From: Ignavibacteriales bacterium
GTDB taxonomy: Bacteria > Bacteroidota > Ignavibacteria > UBA10030 > SZUA-254
Direction: 5' to 3'
Assembly (NCBI GenBank): GCA_037441745.1
Contig: JBBIRP010000001.1
Coordinates: 1 to 37,719, forward strand
Length of the DNA: 37,719 nt
The position numbers and the translations under genes are program-made. Each line of letters opens with the position of its first letter. The stretch's first letter is position 1. The notes beneath the pieces are model-generated. The model did not search any database and was not told the DNA's origin. It saw nothing but the letters and a program-made list of their open reading frames with translations. Positions 1-25,957 of the stretch are shown here, one piece after another.

Positions 1-1226
1 TATGCACTGATTGCCACGGTGAACATAATATTTTACCACACGATGATCCATTATCCCGTATTGCACCCATAAATATATCGGGCCAGATCTGTACTCCATG
101 TCATAGTTCTGTAAAGTTGTCGGAGAAGTATGGAATTGCAAGCAATCGCATCGAAACATTTTCCGACAGCTACCACGGACTTGCCAACAAAGCTGGTTCA
201 ATTGAAGTAGCTAACTGCGCTAGCTGTCATGGTGTACATAATATTAAACCATCCAGTGATTCAACATCAACTATTAGCAAGCAGAATCTCGTTAAAACAT
301 GTGGCAAATGCCACCCGGGTGCAAATGAACGCTTTACAATAGGTTCAGTTCATAGCACGACTAAATCAAAACAAGAACCTTTACTCTATTGGATTGCTAC
401 GACCTATATTATTTTGATAATCGTTACCATTGGGGGAATGTTCATACACAATCTATTTGATTTTGTAAAAAAGTCGAAACGGAAGTTAATGATCCGACGT
501 GGTCTAATATCTGACAAGCATTACAGCATACAAATGTATCTCCGTATGTCATTAAATGAACGAATCCAGCATGGGGCATTATTTACAAGTTTTATAACAT
601 TAGTATTAACGGGTTTTGCATTAAAATTTCCTGATGCTTGGTGGGTTGTTCCAATTCGAAATGTAAGTCCACTAATATTTGAAATTCGTGGTATAGTACA
701 CCGCGTCGCTGCGGTTGTAATGGTACTTGCAAGTTTATACCATCTCTATTATATTCTTTTCGTTCCTCGAGGAAAACAGCTGATCAAAGATTTATTACCT
801 ACAACGAAAGACATTAACGACTTTATAAACGCATTGATGTATAACTTTGGAGCAAACCAATTCAAACCAAAATTTGGTAGATTTAGTTACATCGAGAAGG
901 CTGAATATTGGGCCTTAGTTTGGGGTACTATCGTTATGACAGTCACTGGAACCATTCTTTGGTTTGATAACACCTTCATGGGACTTCTTACAAAATTAGG
1001 ATGGGACGCAGCTCGAACTATTCATTATTACGAAGCCTGGCTTGCAACATTAGCAATAATAGTTTGGCATTTTTATTTTGTAATATTCAACCCCGATGTT
1101 TATCCAATAAATCTCGCATTTTGGAAGGGAACTCTTACCGAAGAAGAGATGATGGAAGAACATCCACTTGAGCTTGAACAGATCAAACGAGAAGAATTTA
1201 AAAAGTCTACTGATGCTGAAATCTAA
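1..1226 (+). CDS. Multihaem c-type cytochrome fused to a C-terminal FdnI/HydC-type cytochrome b membrane domain (CbcL-like inner-membrane quinol oxidoreductase). The 5' end lies upstream of the window.
   Basis: The frame of ORF 117-1226 is open from nt 3 (translation CTDCHGEHNILPHDDP...). Four CxxCH motifs are in the window: CTDCH, CTPCH, CASCH, CGKCH. A TM helix follows (LLYWIATTYIILIIVTIGGMFI), then four helices with conserved His (ERIQHG; IVHRVAAVVMVLASLYHLYY; RTIHYYEAW...VWHFYF). It is clearly paralogous to ORF 3233-4084. Confidence 0.8.
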   Translation, partial: CTDCHGEHNILPHDDPLSRIAPINISGQICTPCHSSVKLSEKYGIASNRIETFSDSYHGLANKAGSIEVANCASCHGVHNIKPSSDSTSTISKQNLVKTCGKCHPGANERFTIGSVHSTTKSKQEPLLYWIATTYIILIIVTIGGMFIHNLFDFVKKSKRKLMIRRGLISDKHYSIQMYLRMSLNERIQHGALFTSFITLVLTGFALKFPDAWWVVPIRNVSPLIFEIRGIVHRVAAVVMVLASLYHLYYILFVPRGKQLIKDLLPTTKDINDFINALMYNFGANQFKPKFGRFSYIEKAEYWALVWGTIVMTVTGTILWFDNTFMGLLTKLGWDAARTIHYYEAWLATLAIIVWHFYFVIFNPDVYPINLAFWKGTLTEEEMMEEHPLELEQIKREEFKKSTDAEI

Positions 1227-3252: not shown

Positions 3253-4084
3253 ATCAACTGAAAAAGAATATCTTCGTTTTTCAAGATTGAATAGAATTCT
3301 TCACGTCTGCATGATTGTAAGTTTTCTAAGTTTAGCACTCACAGGTATGACATTAAAATTTTCATATACAAATTGGGCCGTTGTTTTATCGCACTTCTTT
3401 GGTGGTTTCGAAACCGCCGGATTCATACACCGATTTGCTGCTATAATAATGTTCGGAGTTTTTTTTAGTCATCTTTACGACCTCAGACGTAGAAAACGTA
3501 CTGAATTCGGTACATGGAGAAAAATGCTATTTGGTAATGACACAATGCTGTTTAATAAAAAGGATATAAAAGATCTTATCGGCAATTTTAAGTGGTTTCT
3601 TGGATTAGGACCGCGCCCAAAATTCGGACGATGGACATATTGGGAAAAGTTTGATTATTTTGCAGTTTTTTGGGGAATAACTGTAATTGGTTCCACAGGC
3701 TTAACTCTTTGGTTCCCCGAATTCTTCACACTTTTTTTACCTGGTTGGTTTATTAATGTCGCTACGATCATACATAGCGATGAGGCACTTCTAGCGACTG
3801 GTTTTATTTTTACTGTACACTTTTTCAATACACACCTTCGTCCAGAAAAATTCCCAATGGATATAGTTATCTTTACTGGAAGAATGCCGTTAGAAGAGTT
3901 TAAACGAGATAAGCCAGGCGAATTTGAGGAACTCCTAAAAAAAGGCGAACTTGAAAATTATCTCGTTGATTCATATCCGCCAATAGTTATTCGTACCATT
4001 CGCATATTTGGATGGATTGCATTAACGATCGGGTTTAGTATTATAATCTGGATTGTATATGCAATGATATTTGTTTACCGTTAA
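3233..4084 (+). CDS. Membrane cytochrome b subunit (FdnI/HydC, Ni_hydr_CYTB-like), partner of the 19-haem cytochrome
   Basis: Four hydrophobic helices carry conserved His: RILHVCM; FIHRFAAIIMFGVFFSHLY; ATIIHSDEALLATGFIFTVHFFNTH. It aligns by eye with the C-terminal half of ORF 1-1226 (LTG..LKF, IHR.AA, PKFGR.[ST]Y.EK, TG..LWF, IH..EA.LAT). An alternative start at ATG 3245 forms an ATGAATAA start/stop overlap with the upstream gene. Confidence 0.8.
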   Translation: MEKTMNKSTEKEYLRFSRLNRILHVCMIVSFLSLALTGMTLKFSYTNWAVVLSHFFGGFETAGFIHRFAAIIMFGVFFSHLYDLRRRKRTEFGTWRKMLFGNDTMLFNKKDIKDLIGNFKWFLGLGPRPKFGRWTYWEKFDYFAVFWGITVIGSTGLTLWFPEFFTLFLPGWFINVATIIHSDEALLATGFIFTVHFFNTHLRPEKFPMDIVIFTGRMPLEEFKRDKPGEFEELLKKGELENYLVDSYPPIVIRTIRIFGWIALTIGFSIIIWIVYAMIFVYR

Positions 4085-4176: not shown

Positions 4177-5667
4177 ATGAAACGGATTTTTCCACCTTCA
4201 TTCTACAATCTTACAACACTTGTAGGTGCATCAATTGCATCGGTTAGTTTGGGACTAATCGTTTTTCTGACGATCATTGAATTATTTTCAACCGAACAAA
4301 AACCGTACATGGGAATAATAGCATTTGTAATTTTACCTGCCTTCCTTTTATTGGGTATTCTTCTAATTTTTCTTGGTATAATCAGAGAACATCGGCTTGA
4401 ACGCAAAGGTAAACCTCATGGTCTTCATTTTCCGCAAATCGATTTAAATAACCCTCGACACCGAACTGCTTTCACGTTCTTTTCGATCGGAGGAATTTTG
4501 TTATTAATGTTCTCAGCTTTTGGTAGTTTTAAAGCATACGAATATACCGACTCAGACAATTTTTGCGGTGAAACTTGTCATAAGGTGATGTATCCCGAGT
4601 TTACGGCATATCAATATTCTCCTCACGCTCGTGTTGGGTGCGTCCAATGCCATATCGGTCCAGGCGCAACTTGGTTTGTGCGTTCAAAACTCTCAGGCGC
4701 ATATCAGGTCTATGCGACTATATTCAATAAATATCCACGTCCAATTCCAACACCAATTCAAAATCTACGACCAGCGCAAGAAACCTGTGAACAATGTCAT
4801 TGGCCCAAGCATTTCTTCAGTGAAAAACAACATGTAAATACATATTATTTGAGCGACGAAAATAATACAAAATGGACGCTGAATCTGCTAATGAAAATTG
4901 GAGGAGGTAACATCGAAGCTGGCCCAACATCAGGAATTCATTGGCACATGAATATCGCACACGAAGTTACCTATGCTGCGATAGATTCTCAACGTATGAT
5001 TATCCCTTGGGTAAAAGTTAAAGACCCTGACGGCAAAGAAAGAATTTATCGAAGTACGGAAATAGAGATAACAGAAGATAGTTTAGCAAAAGTCGAAAAG
5101 CGTAGAATGGACTGTATTGATTGCCACAATCGACCTAGCCACATTTATCATCCACCTGCAAGATCTGTAAATCACTTAATGTCGCTTGGGTGGATCGATC
5201 CAGAATTACCTTCCATTAAGAGCATTAGCGTTAAAGTTTTAGAATATCCATATACTACAAACCAGACAGCTTTGGATAGTATAAAATCGGAAATCGAAGA
5301 ATATTACAAATCAAATTATCCAGAAGTATACAAAAATAACGCCATCGAAAAAACGATAACTGAATTGCAGAAAGTTTATAGTCGAAATTACTTCCCAGAA
5401 ATGAAAATTAACTGGAAAAGGTACCCAGAGCATATCGGTCATCTTTATGCACCTGGATGTTTTAGATGTCACGATGGAAAACACATTAATAATGATGGTA
5501 AGGTTCTTTCTAAAGATTGTAATCAGTGCCATACGATTCTCGCTCAACATTTTGAAAAACAAAAAGAGCGTATTTCATTGAGTGGTGTAGAATATGTTCA
5601 TCCTGTTGATATAGGTGATGCATGGAAAGAGACAAACTGTAGTGAGTGTCATGCCGGCGAACAGTGA
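4177..5667 (+). CDS. Inner-membrane NapC/NirT-type multihaem cytochrome with three N-terminal TM helices and 7 haem motifs (ImcH-like)
   Basis: Three hydrophobic helices lie in the first ~115 aa. The NapC/NirT-like signature follows: FCGETCHKVMYPEFTAYQYSPHARVGCVQCH. There are six CxxCH motifs (CVQCH, CEQCH, CIDCH, CFRCH, CNQCH, CSECH) plus one CxxxCH (CGETCH). This architecture matches published descriptions of Geobacter ImcH. Confidence 0.78.
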   Translation: MKRIFPPSFYNLTTLVGASIASVSLGLIVFLTIIELFSTEQKPYMGIIAFVILPAFLLLGILLIFLGIIREHRLERKGKPHGLHFPQIDLNNPRHRTAFTFFSIGGILLLMFSAFGSFKAYEYTDSDNFCGETCHKVMYPEFTAYQYSPHARVGCVQCHIGPGATWFVRSKLSGAYQVYATIFNKYPRPIPTPIQNLRPAQETCEQCHWPKHFFSEKQHVNTYYLSDENNTKWTLNLLMKIGGGNIEAGPTSGIHWHMNIAHEVTYAAIDSQRMIIPWVKVKDPDGKERIYRSTEIEITEDSLAKVEKRRMDCIDCHNRPSHIYHPPARSVNHLMSLGWIDPELPSIKSISVKVLEYPYTTNQTALDSIKSEIEEYYKSNYPEVYKNNAIEKTITELQKVYSRNYFPEMKINWKRYPEHIGHLYAPGCFRCHDGKHINNDGKVLSKDCNQCHTILAQHFEKQKERISLSGVEYVHPVDIGDAWKETNCSECHAGEQ

Positions 5668-5707
5668 AAATATTTAATTAGAAAAATAGATTAGGAAAGG
5701 AAAATTG

Positions 5708-6448
5708 ATGCAAAAATTTTTCTCAAAATTCCCAGATGCATTTATAAGAATCGGTCTTCTTTTTGCAGGATTGGTAGCATTAATTATTATAATACGTGGT
5801 TTGTTACCACCTGAAATTAAAAAAACAGAGATACATAAAAAATCTACAGTCGATAGGGAAATTGCAAAACCAATAAATTATGCTGGTTCAAATGTTTGCG
5901 GCAATTGTCATGAAGAATCAAACATAAAAAGTACAGGTTATCATAGAAATTTATCTTGCGAGACTTGCCATGGGGCAGCAAAAGAACATTCCGAAAACCC
6001 ATCTGATGTGAAACCGCAAATACCAAGACAACGTGAATTCTGCACACATTGTCATAATTATGATATGTCGAGACCGACTGGTTTTCCACAAATTAATCCA
6101 ATTGCGCACAATCCATTGAAACCTTGTGTAACTTGCCACAATCCACATGATCCTAAACCACCAACCACACCTCAGGAATGTCAAGCATGTCATGCAGAAA
6201 TAGCAAGGACAAAAGCAATATCATATCATGTTATGGTAGAGTGTACGACTTGCCATAGAGTAAAAGTTGAACATAAGTTGGCACCACAAATCATAAAAGC
6301 AACTATACCATCTGATAAGATATTTTGTGCGAGATGTCACTCAAAAGAATTGTCTACAAAAGGGATATCAAATATAGATTTTACCTCACATTATGAGAAA
6401 TATATGTGTTGGCAATGTCATGATCCACATAATCCGGAGATTGAATAA
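5708..6448 (+). CDS. Octahaem c-type cytochrome with an N-terminal membrane anchor
   Basis: Eight CxxCH motifs: CGNCH, CETCH, CTHCH, CVTCH, CQACH, CTTCH, CARCH, CWQCH. The N-terminal helix is IRIGLLFAGLVALIIIIRGLL. I prefer the ATG at 5708 over the TTG at 5705; a purine-rich aggaaaggaaaa lies upstream. Confidence 0.85.
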   Translation: MQKFFSKFPDAFIRIGLLFAGLVALIIIIRGLLPPEIKKTEIHKKSTVDREIAKPINYAGSNVCGNCHEESNIKSTGYHRNLSCETCHGAAKEHSENPSDVKPQIPRQREFCTHCHNYDMSRPTGFPQINPIAHNPLKPCVTCHNPHDPKPPTTPQECQACHAEIARTKAISYHVMVECTTCHRVKVEHKLAPQIIKATIPSDKIFCARCHSKELSTKGISNIDFTSHYEKYMCWQCHDPHNPEIE

Positions 6449-6450
6449 AT

Positions 6451-7191
6451 ATGAATAGAAGAAATTTCATAAACAAATTTATGAAGCAACTTGCATCCAT
6501 AAGCATTATAAATGGTTTTACAAAGAAAGCACACGCAACCCCAAATAGTTACGATGCCTCGAAACATTATTATGAAATGGGAATACAGGTTGATAAATGT
6601 ATCGGGTGTGGTACTTGCATGGATGCCTGTAAAATAGAAAATGATGTCCCAAAAGAACCGTTTTTCTTTAGGACGTGGGTGGAACGCTATATTATAAAAA
6701 AAGATCGTAGTGTTCAGGTCCAAAATATCAAAGGATGGACTGGTGAATTAACCGAAAAAACCACCGAGGCAGACGTTCTAAGAAGCTTTTTTGTTCCAAA
6801 GTTATGCAATCAATGCGATAACCCTCCCTGTGTCCAAGTTTGCCCGGTTGGTGCAACTTTCAAAACGGAGGATGGAGTAATTTTAGTCGATGATACACGT
6901 TGCATAGGTTGCAGGTATTGTATTCAAGCTTGTCCTTATGGTGCTCGATTTTTACATCCAGAAAAGAGTACCGCTGAAAAATGCACATTTTGTTATCATC
7001 GAATTACAAAAGATTTGTTACCTGCTTGCGTTGAAGTTTGCCCAACGCAAGCAAGAATATTCGGAGACCAAAAAAGTCCTGCAAGCCCTCTTAATAGGTT
7101 CAAGCATAGAAGCAAAATTCATGTTTTAAAACCAGCATTAAATACTGAACCCAAAGTATATTATTCAAATCTTGACGGAGAAGTTCGATGA
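6451..7191 (+). CDS. Tat-exported NrfC/HmcB-type ferredoxin subunit with four [4Fe-4S] motifs
   Basis: Twin-arginine motif MNRRNFINKF. The four Cys clusters are CIGCGTCMDAC, CNQCDNPPCVQVCP, CIGCRYCIQACP and CTFCYHR...ACVEVCP. The gene starts 2 nt after the upstream stop. Confidence 0.9.
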   Translation: MNRRNFINKFMKQLASISIINGFTKKAHATPNSYDASKHYYEMGIQVDKCIGCGTCMDACKIENDVPKEPFFFRTWVERYIIKKDRSVQVQNIKGWTGELTEKTTEADVLRSFFVPKLCNQCDNPPCVQVCPVGATFKTEDGVILVDDTRCIGCRYCIQACPYGARFLHPEKSTAEKCTFCYHRITKDLLPACVEVCPTQARIFGDQKSPASPLNRFKHRSKIHVLKPALNTEPKVYYSNLDGEVR

Positions 7192-8402
7192 CCCCAATTA
7201 TTGAACATTTAACTGAGTTAGCAAAACAAGTTTCTGGGTATATCTATCCGAATGAAATTGAAATCCATTGGTCAATACTGATTGTCGTTTATCCATATGT
7301 GACTGGCTTAGTTGCTGGGGCTTTTATCCTCGCATCACTTGTAAAAATATTCAATGTTAAAGAGGTTCAATCTGTTTATCGTCTCTCGCTATTGACAGCA
7401 TTAGCATTTTTATTAGTAGCACCACTACCTTTATTGCTTCATCTCGGCCACCCAGAACGTTCATACGAAATTTTCTTAAACCCAAATCTAAGTTCAGCAA
7501 TGGCAATGTTTGGATTCGTGTATACTTGGTACCTTATGGTCGTCTTACTACTTGAGATTTGGTTCACTTATAGGAAAGATTTGGTTCTCTTATCTCAAGA
7601 AGAAAAATTCCCAATGAACTGGATACACAAAATTGTCGTTTTATTTTCAAGAGATACAAGTGAGAGAGGAACTAATTTTGATAAAAAGGTTCTGAAGATA
7701 ATAACCATCATTGGTATTCCATCTGCATTTTTACTTCATGGTTATGTTGGGTTCATCTTTGGCTCAATCAAAGCAAATCCATGGTGGAGTAGCGTGTTAA
7801 TTCCTATAGTCTTTTTATTCTCTGCGATTGTCTCCGGCATAGCACTTGTGATTTTTTTATATATGATAATAACAACCTACCGAGGTGAACAAATTGATAT
7901 GGGCTGTCTTGATAAAATGGCTTCATACCTTTTTTATGCTGTTATTGTAGATTTTTCACTTGAGATGCTCGATTTTATACATCGTTTATACGAGAGCGAA
8001 GAGTCTATTCATATTTTATCTGAGCTAGTAATGAACAAACTTTTTATCAGCCTCGGTATCATTCAAGTTTTATTGGGTATGATTATACCATTGGGGATAA
8101 TGATTTCTATAAAATTGTTGAAAGTTGAAGCCGAACTTAGAAAATTATTATATTTTGTTTCAATAATACTTATTCAGATTGGAATTTTCGCCACAAGATG
8201 GAATGTTGTGATTGGAGGCCAGATGTTCTCAAAAAGTTTTAGAGGGTTAACCGCATATAAAATGGAACTTGGTGGTATTGAAGGCTTACTTGTTGCTCTG
8301 GGTGTGCTTGTACTGCCGTTCATTATACTCACGATCTTATTCAAAATATTCCCACCCTGGGAGTATAGAAAGAAGAACATCGTTGTTGAAACAGCAAACT
8401 AA
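7188..8402 (+). CDS. NrfD/PsrC-family polytopic membrane quinone-interacting subunit
   Basis: 404 aa, highly hydrophobic with 8-10 predicted helices. ATGA overlap with the upstream FeS gene. Its position after an NrfC-like gene is the classic NrfCD arrangement. Confidence 0.85.
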   Translation: MTPIIEHLTELAKQVSGYIYPNEIEIHWSILIVVYPYVTGLVAGAFILASLVKIFNVKEVQSVYRLSLLTALAFLLVAPLPLLLHLGHPERSYEIFLNPNLSSAMAMFGFVYTWYLMVVLLLEIWFTYRKDLVLLSQEEKFPMNWIHKIVVLFSRDTSERGTNFDKKVLKIITIIGIPSAFLLHGYVGFIFGSIKANPWWSSVLIPIVFLFSAIVSGIALVIFLYMIITTYRGEQIDMGCLDKMASYLFYAVIVDFSLEMLDFIHRLYESEESIHILSELVMNKLFISLGIIQVLLGMIIPLGIMISIKLLKVEAELRKLLYFVSIILIQIGIFATRWNVVIGGQMFSKSFRGLTAYKMELGGIEGLLVALGVLVLPFIILTILFKIFPPWEYRKKNIVVETAN

Positions 8403-8426
8403 CTTTTTTTAATTAGGAAATATATT

Positions 8427-8888
8427 ATGAATATAAACAACGCACAAATGACATCTGTACATGAAAGTAAACGTAATTTTTTAAAATACATCTTCTCGGG
8501 TAGTATAGTTGCGTTATTTGGTTCAATTCTATATCCAATACTCGCATATCTAATACCACCTAAACAAAGAGAGGTTATTGTATCTAATGTTAAGGCTGGG
8601 AAATTAATCGACATTGAGAAGGATAGTGGTCGAATTATAAAATTTGGGAGAAAGCCTGTAATTCTCATTCGAACAAGCAAAGGTGATTTAAAAGCGTTTT
8701 CTGCAACTTGTACACATTTAGATTGTACAGTCCAATATCGAAAAGATATGGGGATGATATGGTGTGCTTGTCATAATGGTAAATATGATTTGAATGGCAG
8801 AAATGTTTCAGGTCCACCACCGCGCCCATTAGATGAATTTAAAGTGATTGTTCAAGGAGAGGAGGTATTCATCACGAAAAAATCATGA
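8427..8888 (+). CDS. Rieske [2Fe-2S] protein
   Basis: Both Rieske boxes are present: CTHLDCTV and CACHNGKY. An N-terminal TM helix ([22 protein letters not shown]) is preceded by SKRNFLKY, a KR variant of the Tat motif. Confidence 0.9.
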
Positions 8889-9964
8889 AGACATTTTGGA
8901 AAAAATACTACGATTGGATAAACGAGCGAGTTATGCTTGACGATTTGGTCGAGTTTATGGGTAAGAAATATGTACCCGTCCATAGGCATTCAATATGGTA
9001 TTACTTTGGAGGTGTTTCACTCTTTCTCTTTATCGTTCAAGTAATAACTGGTATACTTCTTCTTCTATATTATAAAAGCGGTGAAGAAACAGCTTTCGAG
9101 AGCGTTCAATACCTAATGTCCAAAGTTAATTTTGGGTGGCTTATTCGCTCAGTTCATAGTTGGACTGCAAATCTGTTTATACTCACTGCGATGATTCATA
9201 TGTTTAGTGTATTCTTTGAAAAAGCCTATCGGAAACCAAGAGAAATCACATGGCTTACTGGAATACTTATGTTTTTCTTAGCACTTGGTTTTGGTTTTAG
9301 CGGATATTTACTACCATGGAATGAGCTTGCCTTTTTTGCAACAAAAGTCGGAACCGAGATTGCTGGTGCAGTTCCACTCATTGGGAAACCGATACTGATA
9401 TTTTTGCGGGGTGGAGAGGAAGTCACTGGTGCTACGCTTTCAAGATTTTTCGGTTTCCACGTTGCGGTTTTACCCGGAATTTTTACTGTATTATTAGGAA
9501 TCCACTTAATACTGGTACAACGTCAAGGAATGAGCGAACCACTCGGAATCGTTTCCGAGCAAGGAAAAGAACTGAAGACTATGCCTTTCTTCCCTAATTT
9601 TCTCCTTAGGGACTTACTTTTATGGCTGATTGTTTTAAATATCATAGCAATATTAGCTGTATTTTTCCCATGGGAATTAGGGAAAAAGGCAGATGCTTTT
9701 GCGTCTGCACCAGCCGGTATTAAACCAGAGTGGTATTTTCTGTTTATGTTTCAAACATTAAAATATATTCCCGCCAAACTATGGATTGTTGACGGTGAAG
9801 TTTTTGGCATCATTATGTTTGCTATAACTGGTTTATTGTGGACGTTAGTACCATTTTGGGATAGAAAAAGTTCACGAGGGGAAAGAAATAGACTTATCAA
9901 TTATATCGGTTTGCTGATTGTCATCTACATAATCATTCTAACAATTATTGGCTGGACATCATGA
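8885..9964 (+). CDS. Cytochrome b of a Rieske/cyt b complex (b6-like N-terminal part fused to a subunit-IV-like C-terminal part)
   Basis: Helix B has H-x13-H ([16 protein letters not shown]). Helix D has H-x14-H ([17 protein letters not shown]), which is b6-like spacing. The Qo-site PEWY motif is present ([15 protein letters not shown]). ATGA overlap with the Rieske gene. Confidence 0.92.
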
Positions 9965-11421
9965 AGACAAATTTGCTAATATTTCTTTTTAATGTATTTA
10001 CACAAATTACTTTTTCACAATTAAAAGTTAATTATTGCTTTGAATGTCATGAAAACATCGGTGATAAGGTCGCTGAGTCGTTTAAAAAGGATGTGCATAA
10101 AGAAAAAGGAATAACATGTGCAGGTTGCCATGGTGGCGATGCTGCATCAGAAGTCTTGGAACAGGCAATGTCTAAAGAAAAAGGTTTTATCGGTGTACCA
10201 AAGGGAGATGATATTTCTAAAACATGTGCAAAATGCCATTCAAATGCAAAGATAATGGTGAAAGATTTTAATTCTATTCTCCCAAGAAATCAATACGAAA
10301 GTTTAGTAACAAGTGTACACGGACAACTTTCGAACACGGGAAAAGAACGTATTGTACAATGTACAACATGTCATCAATCACATGGAATCGTATCAGTAAA
10401 AAATCCAACTTCACCAGTTTATCCAATCAATGTTGTAAAAACTTGTGCAAGATGCCACTCGAATGCTACCTATATACGCGCGTATAATCCATCGTTACCA
10501 ATAGATCAATTGGATAAGTATAGAACAAGTGTTCATGGAATTAAAAATTCTCAAGGAGACGTAAAAGTAGCCGCGTGTTCAGATTGTCATGGCAGTCATG
10601 ATATACTTTCAGCCAAAGATACTAAATCAAAAGTGTATGCAATTAATATTCCGAATACATGTGGCGAATGTCATTCTAATTCACAATATATGAAAGAGTA
10701 TCACATTCCTTCGGATCAAGTTAAAAAATTCTCTAAAAGCGTGCATGGAGTTGCGCTTCTTGAGAAGCATGACCTAGGTGCACCAGCGTGTAATGATTGC
10801 CATGGTAATCATGGTGCAGTACCTCCAAATGTAGAATCAATATCAAGTGTATGCGGAATTTGTCATGCAATTAATGCTTCATTATTTTCATCAAGTCCAC
10901 ATAAAAAAGCATTTGACAAAAATAAATTCCCTGAATGTGAAACATGTCATGGTTATCATGAGATTGTTGCTGCTAACGATGAACTTCTCGGAGTATCACC
11001 AGAGGCAGTTTGCAGTAGGTGTCATAAGGAAAATGAAAATCCAAAAGGATATATAGCCGCACAAGAAATGAGACAATTAATTGATAGCTTAGAAAATTAT
11101 GAAAAGTATGCAGATTCGATAGTTACTGAAGCAGAGCAAAAAGGAATGGAAGTTTCGGATATAAAATTTAAACTCCGCGATGTACATCAGTCAAAATTAC
11201 AATCACGAACAACGGTTCACGCATTCGATGTCGTAAAATTTAAAGAAACGGTTGGAAAAGGAATTGAAATAGCTTCAGTTTCGGCAGCTGAGGGTAAAAA
11301 ATCCATCGATGAGTACTATTTCCGCAGGTGGGGTTTAGGAATCGCCACAATAATTATTACAATCGTCGTTATCGCCCTATATCTAACTATACGTCGTATT
11401 GAGCAAAATCAATCTAAATAA
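9961..11421 (+). CDS. 11-haem c-type cytochrome with a signal peptide, a C-terminal helical non-haem region and a TM anchor (c-subunit of the Rieske/cyt b module)
   Basis: I counted 11 exact CxxCH motifs. Signal peptide [20 protein letters not shown]. The last ~110 aa carry no haem motif and end in the helix [25 protein letters not shown] overlap with the cytochrome b gene. Confidence 0.88.
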
Positions 11422-11802: not shown

Positions 11803-12963
11803 ATGCTATTCAGTAAATGGAACATATTTCTATTACTTATAACACCTATTTATCTTTATTCACAAGAAATTAAGCTACCACAAAATCCCCTCAAAGGGCA
11901 AATCATATTTGAGGAAAAAGGATGCATTGAATGCCATGCTATAGGTGGATATGGAGGAACTGAGGGGCCTGATTTAAATCAAGAATTATATTTTGGTAGT
12001 GTACTTGAGTTAGCATCTATAATTTGGAACCATACACCTCAAATGAATCGAAAGTTTCGTCAACTTCGTATGGAACGTCCCTTGCTTTCAGAAGAGGAGA
12101 TGTTAGATTTATTTGGATTTCTTTATTATCTAAGATATTTAGGAGAACCGGGTAGTGTCGCAAAGGGTAAAAAAACATTAGAATCAAAAGGATGTACGGG
12201 ATGCCATAAAGTAGCTGGTAAGGGGGGCAACATCGGTCCTGATTTAGAAAATATTCAGCATTTTGCATCTCCATTATATATAGTACAAGCAATGTGGAAT
12301 CATGGTCCAAAAATGCAAGAACAAATTAAAAAATTAGGAATAAACTTCCCAATCTTAACAGGTCAAGATATCAATAATATAACAACATACATACGCCAAG
12401 CGACAATGGGAAACGTGGAAGTTAGAATGTCGCCCGGTGATCCTGTAAAAGGTAAAGAACTATTTAAAACTAAAGGTTGCAATAACTGTCATATGGTCGA
12501 AGGGAAGGCTAAAAGAATAGGTCCAAATCTCTCAAAAATTGAATTAAAAAAAGGTGTCACCGAAGTAGCAAGCTTAATGTGGAATCACGGACCTATAATG
12601 ATGTCTGCAATGAAAAAAGAATCCATGGATTGGCCTCAATTTAAGGATAATGAAATGGCAGATCTGATTGCTTATTTATATTTCTTGGGTTTCGAAGATA
12701 AACAAGGGGATCCTGTCAGAGGTGAAAAGGTTTTTCAGTCCAATGGATGTATTGATTGCCATAAAAAATCAATTGACAGTAAAGCTCCCGACCTATCAAC
12801 TGTTAAACAATTTCAATCACCAATTCAAATGATACAACTTATGTGGAACCATGCAACAAATATGGAAGATCTTTTTATTATTAATAACAAAGAGTGGCCT
12901 CAATTAGAAACTGAAGATATGCGAGATATTTATGCATACCTTAGGAAAATTACTCAAAAATAA
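11803..12963 (+). CDS. Periplasmic c-type cytochrome made of four tandem class-I monohaem domains
   Basis: Signal peptide. The four CxxCH motifs (CIECH, CTGCH, CNNCH, CIDCH) are spaced ~95 aa apart. Each is followed by GPDL/GPNL/APDL and a conserved [IM]WNHxxxM box. RBS aaggag lies 8 nt upstream. Confidence 0.85.
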   Translation: MLFSKWNIFLLLITPIYLYSQEIKLPQNPLKGQIIFEEKGCIECHAIGGYGGTEGPDLNQELYFGSVLELASIIWNHTPQMNRKFRQLRMERPLLSEEEMLDLFGFLYYLRYLGEPGSVAKGKKTLESKGCTGCHKVAGKGGNIGPDLENIQHFASPLYIVQAMWNHGPKMQEQIKKLGINFPILTGQDINNITTYIRQATMGNVEVRMSPGDPVKGKELFKTKGCNNCHMVEGKAKRIGPNLSKIELKKGVTEVASLMWNHGPIMMSAMKKESMDWPQFKDNEMADLIAYLYFLGFEDKQGDPVRGEKVFQSNGCIDCHKKSIDSKAPDLSTVKQFQSPIQMIQLMWNHATNMEDLFIINNKEWPQLETEDMRDIYAYLRKITQK

Positions 12964-12977
12964 ATAAGAACTAGCAA

Positions 12978-13484
12978 ATGAGAAAATACATTAAATTTAT
13001 AATAAGTATAATTCTAATCTTATTATTCACCTTCATGGCAATCCCATTTGCAGAAGATAAAATTGTTCAACCAATCAATTTCAATCATAAAGTTCATCTT
13101 GAAAACGCGGGATTAAATTGTACTGACTGCCATGTAAATGTAGAAAAAAATGCCCGTGCAATAATACCTTCAATTGAGATTTGTAAAAATTGCCATAGCG
13201 AAAACCCAATATCAAATTCACCAAATGAAAAAGATTTGATTAAATATATTGTTGAGAATAAAGAAATACCTTGGAATCAAATATATAGGGTACCAGATCA
13301 TGTATATTTCTCCCATCGCCGGCATGTAGCAATCGGCGAGCAAAATTGTTCAAAGTGTCACGGCGATATGGCTGATAAAACAACGCCGGTTACGCACCAG
13401 GAAATTCCTATAACAATGAATAACTGTTTAGATTGCCATAGGCAACAAAAAGTGACTAATGATTGTCTTGCATGCCACCGTTGA
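12978..13484 (+). CDS. Membrane-anchored pentahaem c-type cytochrome (ActA/QrcA-like)
   Basis: N-terminal helix IKFIISIILILLFTFMAIPFA. Five CxxCH motifs: CTDCH, CKNCH, CSKCH, CLDCH, CLACH; the last is at the extreme C-terminus. It sits directly upstream of the MopB/FeS/NrfD genes. Confidence 0.8.
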   Translation: MRKYIKFIISIILILLFTFMAIPFAEDKIVQPINFNHKVHLENAGLNCTDCHVNVEKNARAIIPSIEICKNCHSENPISNSPNEKDLIKYIVENKEIPWNQIYRVPDHVYFSHRRHVAIGEQNCSKCHGDMADKTTPVTHQEIPITMNNCLDCHRQQKVTNDCLACHR

Positions 13485-13497
13485 CTTAAAATAATTT

Positions 13498-15954
13498 ATG
13501 GAAATAACACGACGGGATTTCATTAAATTGTTGGGGGGTATTTCGAGTACAATTGCTCTTAATGGTTGTACCTTAGATGATGTTTTTGAGATACCCGAAA
13601 AATTTATCAATAGAATTAAATCTGGACCTGGCATTGAGAAATGGAAAAACACCATATGCGGATTATGCCCGGGCGGATGTGGTATACGCGTTCGTTTAAT
13701 AGATGATATTCCGGTATATGTTAAAGGAAACCCGACCTATCCTGTAAACCAAGGAGGAATGTGCCCGCTGGGTCTTAATGCTTTACATCATCTCTACCAT
13801 CCCGATCGTATAAAAGGTCCAATTAAAAGAATCGGTAACCCGGGTAGCAACAAATGGGAAGCAATTAGTTGGGATGAAACATTAAAATTTATTGCAGACA
13901 ACCTAGTTAAGCTTCGCAATGAAGGTAAATCTCATCAGGTTGCATTCCTCGGTTACGAAGAACGCGGTTTAATGCATCAACATATAAAAAGATTCTTGCG
14001 ATCATATGGCTCACCAAACTATTTTCAATTCTCTCCAAACCAAAATGATACTATTCCATATTTACTTGTACAAGGAAATTCTAAAGTTCCTTCGTATGAT
14101 TTTCTAAACGCAAAACTTATATTAAGTTTTGGATATAATTTTTTAGAGGGAGGTTATTCTCCCATCTATTACACAAAACTTTACAGTCATCATAGAGAAA
14201 CCCAAACGATTTACATTCAAATTGAACCAAGAATGAGTCTCACTGGATCTAATGCAAATAAATGGATACCCATACGGCCAGGAACTTATGGAGCATTGGC
14301 GCTAGGAATTGCTTATGTCTTAATTAGAGAGGAACTCTATAATAAAGAATTTGTAAAAAAATACACATTCGGTTTCGATGATTGGACCGACTTTAATGGT
14401 ATCAAACACTTAGGATTTAAGAATCTTGTACTCGGTAATTATTATCCTGAAAGAGTGACAGAGATAACTGGTATACCCAGTTCAACCATTCTAGAAATTG
14501 CCCGCGATTTTGGTAACACACAACCATCAATAGCCATCGGTGGTAATGGAGCAATTGACAATACCAACGGTACATTCAGCATGATGGCTATTCACAGCCT
14601 AAATGCACTTATTGGAAATTTTGAAAAAAATGGTGGTATATTCTCCATCGATGATCCATCATTTTCAAAACTACCAGAGATTTATGAAGATTTAATTGCG
14701 AAAAATGGTAATAAACAGGAACGAATTGACAAATCTCAAGACGAAAAATTTTTCTTATCCACTTTCTCAATTGAGAGCTTTACAAATAACATTCTTTCTG
14801 ATAAACCTTACCCGTTAAGCATGTTATTTATTTACAATGGAAATCCTCTATTTGAATCTTTAAACCACTCAGAAGTCACCAAAGCACTACAAAAAATTCC
14901 CCTTATAATAAGCTTCGATAGTATAAGAAACGAAACTAGTGAGTATGCACATCTAATTCTACCAGACCATACATTCCTCGAAACGTGGGATGAAGTTTCC
15001 AATGTCCCATCTGTAGGATTTACTCATGTTGGAATACAACAACCTGTGATTGACCCACTATATGATACTAAACAAGTTGGAGATGTGCTTATTAATTTAG
15101 CAAAAAGAATTGGCGGCATGGTTGCTGAATCTTTCCCCTTCGAAAAATATGAAGACTTTCTAAAAAATTCTTTAAAAGGAATTTACGAATCAGGTAAAGG
15201 TGCTATTACCTCTGAAGGCGTCAAAGGTTTATGGTTGGAATATCTACATCAAAGAGGTTGGCACATCGGTCGGTACAATTCATTCGAAGAATTTTGGGAT
15301 CAATTACTAGAAAATGGTGGTTGGTGGAATCCAATCAAAAAAGAAAAAACTCTTGATAAATTTTTCTCAACCACTTCAGGTAAATTTGAGTTTTATTCAA
15401 CCAGATTAAAAAATCAAATTGAAAATCTTGTTGAAAAATCTAGGGGACCTAAATTCTCTCAAAATATGGAACTAATATTAAACAAATTAAATATTACAGC
15501 AAGAGGAGACAGTATTTTTCTTCCACATCACGAACCAGTTCCTTACAATCAGGATTTACCTCTACACCTTGTTACGTTCAACGTTTTAACAAATCCCTCG
15601 GGTCGTGCAGCTCATTTACCACTAATGCAAGAAATGTTCGGTTATATGGTAAGGCAGTACTGGGATTCATGGATTGAAATCAACACCAAAACAGCAAGTG
15701 AGCTCGGAATATCTGATAATTCATGGGTCTGGGTAGAATCTTCAACATCAAGCATAAAAGTTCGTGCAAAATTAAGTCCTGCGATTTCACCAAACGTTGT
15801 TGCAATTCCTTTTGGATTGGGGCATACATCTTACGGTAGATATGCACGAAATCATGGTATTAATCCATATTCGATTATGAGAAATACATACGATTGTATA
15901 AATGGTAGGTCTGCATTAGAAGGAACAAAAGTAAAGATTTCAAAGGCTGTATAA
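13498..15954 (+). CDS. Tat-exported molybdopterin-oxidoreductase-family (MopB) subunit of Psr/ACIII/Qrc type. The FS0 Cys motif is present but no Cys is seen at the expected Mo-ligand position.
   Basis: Tat motif TRRDFIKLLGG. FS0 motif C-x2-C-x3-C-x27-C (CGLCPGGC...GGMCPLG). By hand alignment to ORF 21041-23230, SFAQCRGPR corresponds to SPNQNDTIP, so the Cys ligand is absent. Confidence 0.82.
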   Translation: MEITRRDFIKLLGGISSTIALNGCTLDDVFEIPEKFINRIKSGPGIEKWKNTICGLCPGGCGIRVRLIDDIPVYVKGNPTYPVNQGGMCPLGLNALHHLYHPDRIKGPIKRIGNPGSNKWEAISWDETLKFIADNLVKLRNEGKSHQVAFLGYEERGLMHQHIKRFLRSYGSPNYFQFSPNQNDTIPYLLVQGNSKVPSYDFLNAKLILSFGYNFLEGGYSPIYYTKLYSHHRETQTIYIQIEPRMSLTGSNANKWIPIRPGTYGALALGIAYVLIREELYNKEFVKKYTFGFDDWTDFNGIKHLGFKNLVLGNYYPERVTEITGIPSSTILEIARDFGNTQPSIAIGGNGAIDNTNGTFSMMAIHSLNALIGNFEKNGGIFSIDDPSFSKLPEIYEDLIAKNGNKQERIDKSQDEKFFLSTFSIESFTNNILSDKPYPLSMLFIYNGNPLFESLNHSEVTKALQKIPLIISFDSIRNETSEYAHLILPDHTFLETWDEVSNVPSVGFTHVGIQQPVIDPLYDTKQVGDVLINLAKRIGGMVAESFPFEKYEDFLKNSLKGIYESGKGAITSEGVKGLWLEYLHQRGWHIGRYNSFEEFWDQLLENGGWWNPIKKEKTLDKFFSTTSGKFEFYSTRLKNQIENLVEKSRGPKFSQNMELILNKLNITARGDSIFLPHHEPVPYNQDLPLHLVTFNVLTNPSGRAAHLPLMQEMFGYMVRQYWDSWIEINTKTASELGISDNSWVWVESSTSSIKVRAKLSPAISPNVVAIPFGLGHTSYGRYARNHGINPYSIMRNTYDCINGRSALEGTKVKISKAV

Positions 15955-15970
15955 GTGAAGGAGAATTAGA

Positions 15971-16654: not shown

Positions 16655-16672
16655 ACAAGTAAATATTTAGAT

Positions 16673-23230: not shown

Positions 23231-23232
23231 TC

Positions 23233-23772: not shown

Positions 23773-23778
23773 GATAAT

Positions 23779-24726: not shown

Positions 24727-24817
24727 TTAGCTTTGTAGCTTTCATGGTTTAATACATAACCATAAGGTACGCTGGAAATGTAAAAAGAGTAAAAAAATAA
24801 AATAGAAGGATTTAATT

Positions 24818-25956: not shown

Positions 25957-25957
25957 A

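What the first reader, a model, noticed from the sequence alone, without database searches (positions are those of the whole stretch)
5708..11421. One translationally coupled operon joins an 8-haem-c/NrfC/NrfD module to a Rieske/cytochrome b/11-haem-c module
Seen: six genes are packed with a 2-nt gap (6448/6451), three ATGA overlaps (7188, 8885, 9961) and one 24-nt spacer. They encode an anchored octahaem c, a Tat-exported 4x[4Fe-4S] protein, an NrfD-type subunit, a Rieske protein, cytochrome b and an anchored 11-haem c. Established: NrfD-family subunits (ACIII, Hmc/Nhc, Psr) and Rieske/cyt b complexes each carry their own quinone site. They are normally separate complexes and are often treated as alternatives to each other. 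Inference: two quinone-reactive membrane modules with 19 c-haems and four FeS clusters are made stoichiometrically, possibly as one supercomplex. That could allow a quinone loop, or a bifurcation-type split of the two quinol electrons between a high-potential haem chain and the FeS/NrfD branch. This parallels proposals for the decorated Rieske/cyt b complexes of anammox bacteria. I do not know of a described complex with this composition.
Basis: partly seen in the sequence, partly recalled or inferred. Interest (0 to 1): 0.82.

Follow-up and report, generated by a model that had tools for sequence, protein, structure and literature searches.

The report
Two separable quinol-oxidising modules, adjacent
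Six tightly packed genes in an Ignavibacteria-type genome encode two self-contained membrane complexes that pass electrons from quinol to multi-haem cytochromes, and relatives show these are independent cassettes that sit side by side here, not a new fused supercomplex.

Summary
Six co-directional genes encode an N-anchored 8-haem c, a Tat-exported 4x[4Fe-4S] NrfC-like protein, an NrfD-family subunit, a Rieske protein, a fused cytochrome b and a C-anchored 11-haem c. The junctions are as described.

The supercomplex or bifurcation reading largely fails its own refutation test.
- The first trio is an autonomous, very conserved cassette. Its NrfD is 59-82% identical in at least 569 species of more than 12 phyla, and its cytochrome always has 8 haems. 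In about 70% of informative genomes it has no Rieske/cyt b nearby.
- The second trio (Rieske/cyt b/9- or 11-haem c) is also widespread on its own. Only 1 of 35 informative metagenome loci carries the NrfD orthologue.
- Inside the window's own clade, loci with and without the first trio interleave on a cytochrome b tree. Without it, an ImcH-like gene abuts Rieske directly.
- Only the module boundary has a loose, variable spacer (12-160 nt).

The window is a respiratory island with about seven quinone-reactive modules.

Best reading: two independent menaquinol:cytochrome c oxidoreductases, probably co-expressed for periplasmic or extracellular electron transfer. The adjacency recurs in several phyla, which suggests a shared pathway rather than an obligate complex.

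The parts
5708..6448 (+). c8: membrane-anchored octahaem cytochrome c (246 aa from the ATG; a TTG lies one codon upstream at 5705). First gene of module C.
   Evidence: It has 8 CXXCH motifs and one N-terminal TM helix. Pfam gives Cytochrome_C7, c3_2 and Paired_CXXCH. Orthologues carry 8 CXXCH in 67/67 loci. Databases name it only 'hypothetical' or 'cytochrome c3 family'.
6451..7191 (+). NrfC-like periplasmic ferredoxin with four [4Fe-4S] clusters and a Tat signal. Module C.
   Evidence: Pfam Fer4_11 at E 3.9e-27. It has 16 Cys in four cluster motifs and an N-terminal MNRRNFI. The best solved relative is Thermus PsrB 2vpw_B at 7e-48. In NCBIfam it is nearest TtrB and DsrO, below the cut-offs.
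7188..8402 (+). NrfD-family integral membrane subunit, ActC-like, with about 10 helices. Presumed menaquinol site of module C.
   Evidence: Pfam NrfD at E 4.6e-41. No PDB match by sequence. The AF2 model (pLDDT 72, pTM 0.76) best matches ACIII ActC chains 8k9e_C and 6btm_C at TM 0.75-0.77. It is 59-82% identical in at least 569 species.
8403..8426 (+). 24-nt spacer: the boundary between module C and module D.
   Evidence: It is the only junction of the six genes that is neither overlapping nor near-abutting. The same junction measures 12-160 nt in 11 related loci, whereas intra-module junctions are -4 to +8 nt. No promoter or terminator was called here.
8427..8888 (+). Rieske [2Fe-2S] protein with an N-terminal TM anchor. 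Module D.
   Evidence: Pfam Rieske and TM_PetC. Boxes CTHLDC and CACHNG, a KR-type Tat-like N-terminus, and one TM helix.
8885..9964 (+). Cytochrome b: b6-like N-part fused to a subunit-IV-like C-part, 359 aa. Module D.
   Evidence: Pfam Cytochrome_B and Cytochrom_B_C. The best PDB matches are cytochrome b6 at 1e-60 and bacterial cytochrome b. The four haem-ligand His and the PEWY motif are invariant in alignment A2. No N-terminal Cys for haem ci is visible in the sequence.
9961..11421 (+). c11: undecahaem cytochrome c with a signal peptide and a C-terminal TM anchor. It takes the place of cytochrome c1/f in module D.
   Evidence: It has 11 CXXCH and a C-terminal TM helix at 459-477. Orthologues follow cytochrome b in 64/80 metagenome loci. 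They carry 11 haems in the Ignavibacteria-type clade and 9 elsewhere.
4177..5667 (+). Context: ImcH-like inner-membrane cytochrome with 3 TM helices and 6 CXXCH + 1 CX3CH. It is the more constant neighbour of module D.
   Evidence: Pfam Cytochrom_NNT and motif counts. It lies directly upstream of Rieske in relatives that lack module C.
1168..4084 (+). Context: a 19-haem cytochrome c plus a b561/FdnI-like cytochrome b, a split CbcL-like module. Window positions 3-1226 hold the C-terminal part of a second, fused CbcL-like protein.
   Evidence: 19 CXXCH. Ni_hydr_CYTB hits. The open frame runs off the left end of the window. Full-length fusions are seen in L001 and L168.
11803..17989 (+). Context: a protein of four monohaem c domains, then pentahaem c, a molybdopterin-family subunit, a 4Fe-4S protein and a second NrfD paralogue (Qrc/ACIII-core-like).
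   Evidence: Pfam hits. The second NrfD is only 20% identical to the first. The same genes occur in a different order in L041 and L149.

Best explanation
The six genes encode two independent, self-sufficient menaquinol:multihaem-cytochrome c oxidoreductases. In this lineage they are concatenated, and probably co-transcribed, inside a larger respiratory gene island.

Module C (c8-NrfC-NrfD) is a minimal ACIII/Cbc4/Nhc-type complex. Inferred mechanism: quinol is oxidised at the ActC-like NrfD subunit, electrons pass through four [4Fe-4S] clusters in the Tat-exported NrfC-like protein, and they leave through the anchored octahaem cytochrome.

Module D (Rieske-cyt b-c11) is a Rieske/cytochrome b complex with an intact Qo motif and both b-haem sites. 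It presumably runs a Q cycle and delivers the high-potential-branch electron to an anchored undecahaem cytochrome instead of cytochrome c1/f.

Both modules feed periplasmic multihaem carriers. They sit alongside an ImcH-like module, CbcL-like modules and a Qrc/ACIII-like module. This looks like a battery of parallel quinol oxidases, as in the Geobacter ImcH/CbcL/CbcBA paradigm.

Shown here: gene content, motifs, fold, modular distribution and junction pattern. Inferred: direction of electron flow, menaquinone as substrate, co-transcription and a role in extracellular or periplasmic electron transfer.
For: Each trio has every part of a stand-alone complex: a membrane quinone subunit, an FeS protein and an anchored multihaem c.

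Module C is autonomous.
- The same three genes, always together, occur in at least 569 GTDB species of more than 12 phyla.
- They form an isolated three-gene operon in Zixibacteria RBG-1 and an Acidobacteriia MAG.
- 43/60 informative loci have no Rieske/cyt b within reach.
- The octahaem count is invariant, 67/67.

Module D is autonomous.
- 598 metagenome stretches encode a relative of the cytochrome b. Of the best 80, 64 have the c11-like gene, and the NrfD orthologue appears in only 2 loci (1 of the 35 with at least 3 kb upstream).
- It stands wholly alone in L171, which encodes the cyt b (P0079) that NCBI names from Ignavibacteria bacterium GWB2_35_12.

Within the window's own clade, C-D and ImcH-D arrangements interleave on a cytochrome b NJ tree. 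In L170 and L172, ImcH abuts Rieske with 3-9 nt.

Intra-module junctions are -4 to +8 nt in all 11 fused loci. The C/D boundary is 12-160 nt.

NrfD from fused and stand-alone loci aligns almost without indels at 75-83% identity. Cytochrome b is 359 aa in loci with and without module C. No interface-specific elaboration is therefore visible.

The window carries about seven quinone-reactive modules in one direction.

Precedents:
- Geobacter Cbc4: 4-haem c + 4x[4Fe-4S] + membrane subunit (10.1101/2025.04.14.648717).
- Geobacter Rieske/cyt b cluster with 10- and 12-haem cytochromes (PMC2825233, PMC5877670).
- The NrfCD pair of Melioribacter roseus, proposed as a quinol:cytochrome c reductase for Fe(III) reduction (PMC3534657).
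- Potential-specific parallel quinol oxidases in Geobacter (PMC5322298 abstract).
Against: - Adjacency of C and D recurs more often than chance would give. Of 60 informative NrfD-centred loci, 10 are fused and 7 have D nearby in other orders or orientations, including Krumholzibacteriia, Eisenbacteria, Acidobacteriota and Vicinamibacteria. Some functional coupling beyond mere co-regulation is therefore possible.
- No transcript, protein or activity data exist for any of these genes.
- Physical association could not be tested because no multimer prediction was available.
- A Rieske centre (menaquinol type, expected above +100 mV) feeding a bis-His multihaem chain is energetically awkward for the forward Q cycle (general knowledge). 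Module D may therefore run differently from what is assumed here.
- The NJ tree has no support values, and the two locus samples were collected with different biases.
Confidence: 0.7

Rival explanations
1. One reading: the six proteins assemble into one supercomplex with two quinone sites, 19 c-haems and four FeS clusters. This would allow an internal quinone loop or a bifurcating split of the quinol electrons.
For: - The genes are tightly packed on one strand with a spacer of only 24 nt and no called terminator.
- The same six-gene order is kept in several Ignavibacteria-type MAGs.
- C-D adjacency also occurs in a second clade (L024/L036/L041) and in L030.
Against: - Both trios occur alone in most relatives, including close ones.
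- Gain or loss of module C is interleaved within the clade.
- The C/D junction is the only uncoupled one, and its length varies.
- No fused-specific insertions are seen in NrfD or cytochrome b.
- By the same packing logic, ImcH would be part of the complex in L170 and L172, where the gap is 3-9 nt.
- The Q cycle already disposes of both quinol electrons without an extra FeS branch (established mechanism).
Confidence: 0.07
2. Functional rather than physical coupling through the menaquinone pool. One module reduces quinone while the other oxidises quinol. For example, module D could run a pmf-driven reverse Q cycle fed from c11, as proposed for the Geobacter metallireducens p-cresol bc1-like complex or for Fe(II) oxidisers, while module C runs downhill. 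Together they would form a redox loop or an uphill/downhill branch point.
For: - C and D recur near each other in several phyla in shuffled order and orientation (binomial estimate).
- Reverse operation has been proposed for a bc1-like complex clustered with p-cresol methylhydroxylase (PMC4122944, citing Johannes et al. 2008).
- CbcL/MtoC-type relatives are found in both metal reducers and metal oxidisers (PMC6295460).
Against: - Module D is found without module C in nearly all D-centred loci, and C without D in most C-centred loci.
- The cytochrome b has PEWY, not the APWY motif linked in that paper with the proposed reverse-acting enzyme (PMC4122944).
- Nothing in the sequence sets the direction of flow.
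Confidence: 0.12
3. The two trios are not co-expressed. They are alternative quinol oxidases driven by separate internal promoters and used under different acceptor potentials, so 'one operon' is only apparent.
For: - The C/D spacer reaches 160 nt and ImcH>c8 reaches 71 nt in relatives, which leaves room for promoters.
- Module D has its own upstream region in L171.
- Geobacter uses ImcH, CbcL and CbcBA at different potentials (PMC5322298; 10.1101/2021.04.15.440034).
Against: - In this window the spacer is 24 nt with no promoter-like site. Any promoter would have to lie inside nrfD.
- The sigma-70 scan is at background level (47 found against 41 expected) and may not suit this phylum. The question is therefore open rather than answered.
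Confidence: 0.2

Closest known systems
Geobacter sulfurreducens Cbc4 (CbcSTU, GSU0068-0070)
   Same: A three-gene inner-membrane quinol:cytochrome c oxidoreductase. It has an N-anchored multihaem c, a protein with four [4Fe-4S] clusters and a cofactor-less integral membrane subunit. It is proposed to feed periplasmic cytochromes (10.1101/2025.04.14.648717).
   Different: CbcS is a tetrahaem NapC/NirT-type cytochrome. Here the cytochrome has 8 haems and no NapC/NirT Pfam hit. Orthology of the other two subunits was not tested.
Alternative complex III (ActABCDEF; structures 6btm, 8k9e, 6lod)
   Same: The NrfD subunit's predicted fold is closest to ActC (TM 0.75-0.77). The ACIII core has an anchored multihaem ActA, an FeS domain (ActB2) and ActC. 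The function is quinol:cytochrome c oxidoreduction.
   Different: Module C has no molybdopterin-like ActB1 domain and no ActD/E/F. It has 8 haems rather than 5. Sequence identity to ActC is only 15-17%. A fuller ACIII/Qrc-like set lies separately at 12978-17989.
Nhc, Qrc and NrfBCD-type NrfD-family complexes (review PMC8076601); Melioribacter roseus NrfCD (PMC3534657)
   Same: Multihaem c + NrfC-like FeS + NrfD-like membrane subunit. M. roseus NrfCD was proposed to donate quinol electrons to periplasmic multihaem cytochromes for Fe(III) reduction.
   Different: None of the classes seen in that review is linked to a Rieske/cyt b complex (0 occurrences of 'Rieske'). Whether Mros1571-72 is the orthologue was not tested.
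Geobacter Rieske/cytochrome b cluster (GSU2930-2937; ExtKLMNOPQS / CbcMNOPQR)
   Same: Rieske plus a b6-type cytochrome b encoded with 10- and 12-haem c-type cytochromes, proposed as a quinol oxidation site for metal reduction (PMC2825233, PMC5877670). The NCBIfam ExtP model hits this cytochrome b at 212 bits, below its cut-off of 290.
   Different: The Geobacter cytochrome b is split (ExtP + ExtQ). Haem numbers and gene order differ. No NrfCD trio is reported in that cluster.
Geobacter metallireducens PcmABCDEFG (Gmet_2117-2123)
   Same: The parts list in a published table is: membrane protein, 4Fe-4S ferredoxin, two cytochrome b proteins, a Rieske 2Fe-2S protein and two tetrahaem c (PMC10989804). 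It is the nearest precedent I found for [membrane + 4Fe-4S] and [Rieske/cyt b + multihaem c] genes in one named cluster.
   Different: I could not verify that PcmA is an NrfD-family protein, because the primary papers are not held. That cytochrome b clade carries APWY and is linked with p-cresol oxidation (PMC4122944). Haem counts differ.
Cytochrome b6f / bc1 and the decorated Rieske/cyt b complexes of anammox bacteria
   Same: A Rieske + dihaem cytochrome b core with a Qo motif.
   Different: No haem ci cysteine. Cytochrome b and subunit IV are fused. The 11-haem subunit has a C-terminal anchor. No NAD(P)-binding or HAO-like partners are encoded here.

Membership tests
NrfD/PsrC family membrane subunit (gene 7188-8402) | Sequence match to the family model | tested here: met
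   Pfam PF03916 at E 4.6e-41, 141.9 bits against a cut-off of 25.8, covering 8-311 of 313 profile positions. All NCBIfam equivalogs (NrfD, DsrP, HybB, TtrC, HmcC) score far below their cut-offs, so it belongs to none of those named subfamilies.
NrfD/PsrC family membrane subunit (gene 7188-8402) | Polytopic helical fold of 8-10 TM helices resembling solved family members | tested here: met
   AF2 model with pLDDT 72 and pTM 0.76. Foldseek top hits are ACIII ActC chains at TM 0.65-0.77, then ActF. PsrC is weaker.
NrfD/PsrC family membrane subunit (gene 7188-8402) | Adjacent Tat-exported NrfC-type four-cluster ferredoxin partner | tested here: met
   Gene 6451-7191 has 16 Cys, an RR motif and a Fer4_11 hit, and overlaps nrfD by 4 nt. 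The pairing is kept wherever the contig reaches far enough upstream; NrfC was detected in 79 of the 80 species loci.
NrfD/PsrC family membrane subunit (gene 7188-8402) | Quinone/quinol binding and ion translocation | not testable with these tools
   This needs biochemistry or a ligand-bound structure.
Rieske/cytochrome b complex (genes 8427-9964) | Rieske cluster-binding boxes CxH...CxxH with the disulfide cysteines | tested here: met
   CTHLDC at residue 95 and CACHNG at residue 113. Pfam Rieske at E 9e-13.
Rieske/cytochrome b complex (genes 8427-9964) | Four conserved His ligands for haems bL and bH | tested here: met
   H91, H105, H192 and H207 are invariant in 11 diverse orthologues.
Rieske/cytochrome b complex (genes 8427-9964) | Qo-site motif (PEWY or a variant) | tested here: met
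   PEWY at residue 281. P281, E282 and W283 are invariant and Y284 nearly invariant in alignment A2 (one PEWF).
Rieske/cytochrome b complex (genes 8427-9964) | Q-cycle activity and its direction | not testable with these tools
   This needs enzymology.
Alternative complex III (as a home for module C) | Molybdopterin-like ActB1 domain, plus ActD/E and a second NrfD-like ActF | tested here: not met
   The trio has only three genes and no Molybdopterin hit. Those domains occur in a separate gene set at 12978-17989.
Geobacter Cbc4 (CbcSTU) | Tetrahaem NapC/NirT-type anchored cytochrome CbcS | tested here: not met
   8 CXXCH and no Cytochrom_NNT hit. The AF2 model of c8 was too poor to compare folds (pLDDT 50).
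Geobacter Cbc4 (CbcSTU) | Protein with four [4Fe-4S] clusters plus a cofactor-less membrane subunit | tested here: met
   Composition as described in 10.1101/2025.04.14.648717. Orthology was not tested.
   - Of 60 informative NrfD-centred species loci, 10 are fused, 7 have D nearby and 43 lack it.
- 1 of 35 informative cytochrome-b-centred loci carries NrfD.
- 0 of 3 further close relatives carry it.
- The arrangements interleave on the tree.
   No multimer prediction was available. There are no fused-specific indels in NrfD or cytochrome b, which is only weak negative evidence.
ImcH family (upstream gene 4177-5667) | Up to three N-terminal TM helices, about seven haem motifs and a NapC/NirT-like region | tested here: met
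   6 CXXCH + 1 CX3CH. Three hydrophobic N-terminal segments are visible in the translation. Pfam Cytochrom_NNT at E 1e-11. Family description from PMC6295460 and 10.1101/2023.05.03.539133. Orthology to GSU ImcH was not tested.

The most novel reading that the evidence does not exclude
In the lineages that keep c8-NrfCD wedged between ImcH and Rieske, the two modules may work as a pair. They could form a supercomplex, or they could be coupled through a local menaquinone pool. One would oxidise quinol while the other re-reduces quinone (a reverse or short-circuited Q cycle). This would give a redox loop or an uphill/downhill branch point for electrons exchanged with extracellular donors or acceptors. 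The recurrent, independently arisen adjacency in Ignavibacteria, Melioribacteraceae-like bacteria, Krumholzibacteriia, Eisenbacteria and Acidobacteriota would then reflect selection for that pairing.
Probability: 0.08. Interest if true: 0.8.

Novelty: new variant of a known kind. Interest (0 to 1): 0.4.

Why it matters
If the supercomplex idea were true, it would be a new type of respiratory machine. The comparative evidence argues against that.

Three things remain useful.
- There is a sharply defined octahaem-NrfC-NrfD complex. It is extraordinarily conserved (NrfD 59-82% identical across more than 12 phyla, at least 569 species) and unnamed. Public annotations call its cytochrome 'hypothetical' or even 'DnaJ-class chaperone'.
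- There is an equally widespread Rieske/cyt b complex that uses a 9- or 11-haem cytochrome. It is frequently coupled to an ImcH-like gene.
- In Ignavibacteria these modules, together with CbcL-like and Qrc/ACIII-like modules, are shuffled like cassettes within one island.

This is a natural experiment. It could show which quinol oxidases are interchangeable in periplasmic or extracellular electron transfer outside Geobacter and Shewanella. It also shows that tight gene packing in such islands does not imply one complex.

Tried and rejected
- Sequence search of NrfD against the PDB found nothing, both with the single sequence and with a 12-sequence profile. Only the fold search placed it, next to ActC.
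- The AF2 model of the octahaem cytochrome from a 31-sequence alignment was unusable (pLDDT 50, pTM 0.23). Its relation to ActA, NrfB or c3-type folds is therefore unresolved and no fold search was run.
- PDB sequence searches for c8 and c11 gave only marginal haem-motif hits.
- The promoter/terminator scan was at background level (47 against 41 expected; 10 against 5.7). It says nothing firm about transcript boundaries. Folding around 8402 and after 11421 showed no convincing terminator.
- Literature: ten full-text searches found no paper describing an NrfCD trio joined to Rieske/cyt b. The two primary papers on the G. metallireducens Pcm cluster are not held, so PcmA's family is unverified.
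- The exact NrfD protein of the window was not on record for a contig look-up. The 100%-identical cytochrome b is on record only on a 2.7-kb Logan contig, so the source record was not identified. The taxonomic placement as Ignavibacteria/Bacteroidota rests on the names of close homologues.
- I considered and rejected filing module C as ACIII or as Cbc4, because defining subunits are missing or different. I also considered haem ci (b6f-type) for cytochrome b and found no N-terminal cysteine.
- Not used: the representative-protein search. The orthologues are too similar to each other for counts of 50%-identity clusters to be informative.

Full report
**1. What is there.**

- c8 (5708-6448, ATG one codon after a TTG at 5705) has 8 CXXCH motifs and one N-terminal TM helix.
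- The next protein (6451-7191) has the twin-arginine motif MNRRNFI and 16 cysteines in four ferredoxin-type motifs. It hits Fer4_11 (E 3.9e-27). Its closest solved relative is Thermus PsrB.
- 7188-8402 is an NrfD-family protein (PF03916, E 4.6e-41).
- 8427-8888 is a Rieske protein with one TM helix and the boxes CTHLDC / CACHNG.
- 8885-9964 is a 359-aa cytochrome b that fuses the b6-like and subunit-IV-like parts. It has His91/105/192/207 and a PEWY Qo motif.
- 9961-11421 has a signal peptide, 11 CXXCH motifs and a C-terminal TM anchor.

These points rest. The junctions are a 2-nt gap, three ATGA overlaps and one 24-nt spacer. No promoter-like or terminator-like site falls in the spacer. Folding of 8330-8430 gives nothing resembling a proper intrinsic terminator.

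**2. The neighbourhood changes the picture.**

The six genes are not an isolated unit. Everything from position 1 to about 20295 is on the + strand and closely spaced.
- The C-terminal part of a CbcL-like multihaem-c/cytochrome-b561 fusion runs off the left end of the window.
- A 19-haem cytochrome with a separate b561-like cytochrome b follows (1168-4084).
- An ImcH-like protein follows (4177-5667). It has three N-terminal hydrophobic segments, 6 CXXCH + 1 CX3CH and a NapC/NirT region. It ends 37 nt before c8.
- Then come the six genes.
- After them lie a four-domain monohaem cytochrome c and a pentahaem-c / molybdopterin / 4Fe-4S / second-NrfD set resembling the Qrc or ACIII core (12978-17989).
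- CcmF follows.
- Further on, a MerR regulator precedes a Psr-like molybdopterin/FeS/third-NrfD operon with sulfur-transport and rhodanese genes.

The window therefore holds about seven quinone-reactive modules. The second NrfD is only 20% identical to the first. Homologues of cytochrome b and NrfD at 80-100% identity are named Ignavibacteriales, Ignavibacteria or Bacteroidota MAGs.

**3. The first trio is an autonomous, highly conserved cassette.**

The NrfD subunit has relatives at 76-84% identity among the top 120 database clusters. Their names include Zixibacteria and Acidobacteriia.
- In Zixibacteria RBG-1 and in an Acidobacteriia MAG, c8-NrfC-NrfD is an isolated three-gene operon among unrelated genes.
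- A scan of one genome per GTDB species found at least 569 stretches encoding a relative. The best 80 are 59-82% identical. They span Ignavibacteria/Bacteroidota, Acidobacteriota, Binatia, Methylomirabilota/Rokubacteria, Desulfobacterota-type 'Deltaproteobacteria', Gemmatimonadota, Planctomycetota, Calditrichota, Eisenbacteria, Krumholzibacteriia, Zixibacteria, Gammaproteobacteria and others.
- tblastn with the window's proteins shows the three genes together wherever the contig reaches far enough upstream.
- The cytochrome has 8 CXXCH in 67 of 67 complete orthologues, at 238-262 aa.

Of 60 loci with enough flanking sequence:
- 10 have Rieske-cyt b directly downstream;
- 7 have it nearby in another order or on the other strand;
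- 43 have none.

NrfD has no PDB match by sequence. Its AF2 model (pLDDT 72, pTM 0.76) superposes best on the quinol-binding ActC subunit of alternative complex III (TM 0.75-0.77).

**4. The second trio is autonomous too.**

A metagenome scan with a cytochrome b alignment (A2; haem ligands and PEW invariant across 11 diverse orthologues) found 598 related stretches. In the best 80, at 55-81% identity:
- Rieske precedes cytochrome b throughout;
- a c11-like gene is present in 64 loci;
- the NrfD orthologue appears in only two loci, one a partial hit upstream and one 9 kb away on the other strand;
- of 35 loci with at least 3 kb upstream, one has it.

The c-type subunit has 11 haems in the Ignavibacteria-type clade and 9 elsewhere.

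I looked up five close relatives chosen purely by cytochrome b similarity.
- Two carry the six-gene arrangement. The 94% relative keeps the whole island, and so does the 83% MAG GCA_016214905.1 for the six genes plus the upstream modules.
- Two have ImcH abutting Rieske by 3-9 nt with no NrfCD trio (L170, L172).
- One has Rieske-cyt b-c11 completely alone. This is L171, which encodes P0079, the cyt b that NCBI names from Ignavibacteria bacterium GWB2_35_12.

**5. Gain and loss within the clade.**

On a neighbour-joining tree of cytochrome b, loci with the trio directly upstream (C-D) interleave with loci where ImcH is directly upstream (ImcH-D), inside the window's own clade. L009 pairs with L088. 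L013 groups with L089 and L093. L010 groups with L087, L090 and L091. In an Ignavibacterium album MAG, the trio lies 6 kb away, upstream of the 19-haem gene.

C-D adjacency also appears in a second clade (L024/L036/L041, Melioribacteraceae-like) and in L030. In the Melioribacteraceae-type loci the Qrc/ACIII-like genes sit between cytochrome b and the c11-like gene. The tree has no support values. The overall pattern, the same modules in many orders, does not depend on it.

**6. Junction pattern.**

In 11 loci with the fused arrangement, every intra-module junction is -4 to +8 nt. The NrfD>Rieske junction is 12-160 nt and ImcH>c8 is 25-71 nt. Translational coupling therefore marks the modules, and the loose joints mark their boundaries. 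NrfD from fused and stand-alone loci aligns with almost no indels at 75-83% identity. Cytochrome b is 359 aa with or without the neighbouring trio. Nothing suggests an added interface.

**7. Interpretation.**

The best-supported reading (about 0.7) is two independent menaquinol:multihaem-cytochrome c oxidoreductases.
- One is a minimal ACIII/Cbc4/Nhc-like NrfCD complex.
- The other is a Rieske/cytochrome b complex with an undecahaem in place of c1/f.
- In this lineage they are concatenated in a respiratory island and are probably co-expressed.

The electron path within each module, the use of menaquinone and a role in periplasmic or extracellular electron transfer are all inferred. The inference rests on family knowledge and on these precedents:
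- Geobacter Cbc4 (10.1101/2025.04.14.648717).
- The Geobacter Rieske/cyt b cluster with 10- and 12-haem cytochromes (PMC2825233, PMC5877670).
- The NrfCD pair of Melioribacter roseus, proposed to feed Fe(III) reduction (PMC3534657).
- Potential-specific parallel quinol oxidases (PMC5322298).
- ImcH/CbcL homologues reported in Ignavibacteriae (PMC6295460).

I give it about 0.07.

A looser functional coupling cannot be excluded (about 0.12). Adjacency of the two modules recurs in unrelated phyla well above a 1-5% chance expectation. For example, 7 of about 50 non-fused informative loci have it (p between 7e-7 and 0.012, depending on the assumed background). That test ignores relatedness.

**8. 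Comparison with what is known, and novelty.**

Each module is of a known kind, but neither is a member of a named, characterised subfamily.
- Module C fails the ACIII definition: it has no ActB1, ActD, ActE or ActF.
- It also fails the Cbc4 definition: its cytochrome is octahaem rather than NapC-type tetrahaem.
- All NCBIfam equivalogs for its subunits score below their cut-offs.

The NrfD-family review contains no Rieske-linked class. The I. album genome paper states that the organism has ACIII rather than a cytochrome b-Rieske complex. The M. roseus paper reports no bc1 genes.

The nearest precedent for the combined parts list is the G. metallireducens 'PcmABCDEFG' cluster, as annotated in a table: membrane protein, 4Fe-4S ferredoxin, two cytochromes b, Rieske and two tetrahaem c. 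I could not verify that PcmA is NrfD-like.

I rate the six-gene arrangement a new variant of a known kind, with interest 0.4. The supercomplex claim is weak. The two conserved uncharacterised modules, their cassette-like shuffling and the frequent ImcH-Rieske/cyt b coupling are worthwhile leads.

Noticed in passing
window 4177-5667; loci L087-L091, L093, L096, L170, L172: The ImcH-like gene is a more constant neighbour of Rieske-cyt b-c11 than the NrfCD trio. It lies directly upstream of Rieske (3-9 nt in L170 and L172). An ImcH-like gene is present in 17 of 35 informative cytochrome-b-centred loci from diverse lineages. An ImcH + Rieske/cyt b partnership does not seem to be discussed in the papers I could read.
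   Followed up: partly
window 5708-8402; L004-L086: The octahaem-NrfC-NrfD trio is unusually conserved for a membrane complex. NrfD is 59-82% identical across more than 12 phyla and at least 569 species, which suggests strong constraint and/or horizontal spread. Its cytochrome is annotated 'hypothetical', 'cytochrome c3 family', 'DnaJ-class molecular chaperone' or 'ribosomal protein S27AE' in public sources.
   Followed up: partly
window 1-1226: The reading frame from position 3 to 1226 is open. It encodes the C-terminal part of a CbcL-like fusion (multihaem c + cytochrome b561-like domain) that runs off the left end of the window. Full-length versions of 676-740 aa occur in L001, L168 and L169. 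It overlaps the start of the 19-haem gene by 59 nt if that gene starts at the TTG at 1168.
   Followed up: partly
window 12978-17989: A second NrfD-family complex with Qrc/ACIII-core composition: pentahaem c, a Tat-signal molybdopterin-family subunit, a 4Fe-4S protein and a 438-aa NrfD paralogue only 20% identical to the first. A protein of four monohaem c domains precedes it (11803-12963). In Melioribacteraceae-like loci (L041, L149) this set is inserted between cytochrome b and the c11-like gene.
   Followed up: partly
window 20592-26608: A MerR-family regulator is followed by a Psr/Phs-like molybdopterin/FeS/NrfD operon (the third NrfD paralogue, 315 aa), two half-size sulfur-transport (YeeE/YedE-like) proteins and a rhodanese. 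This looks like a sulfur-compound respiration unit next to the cytochrome island.
   Followed up: no
L169 9640-10004 and 12890-13991: In one of the two contigs carrying the 94%-identical cytochrome b, the Rieske gene is called as two short ORFs (77 + 44 aa). The four-domain cytochrome c is also split (155 + 216 aa). These are frameshifts or assembly errors. The sister contig L168 has both genes intact.
   Followed up: no
window 11522-11791: A small ORF (89 aa, two predicted TM helices, no Pfam hit) lies between c11 and the four-domain cytochrome c. A similar 84-aa gene is called at the same place in L168 and L169.
   Followed up: no
L171 (Ga0208373_1000986): In L171, which encodes the cyt b (P0079) that NCBI names from Ignavibacteria bacterium GWB2_35_12, the Rieske-cyt b-c11 trio stands alone downstream of a PAS histidine kinase/response regulator pair. 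A gap of about 740 nt separates them. This hints at dedicated two-component regulation of that module in some lineages.
   Followed up: no
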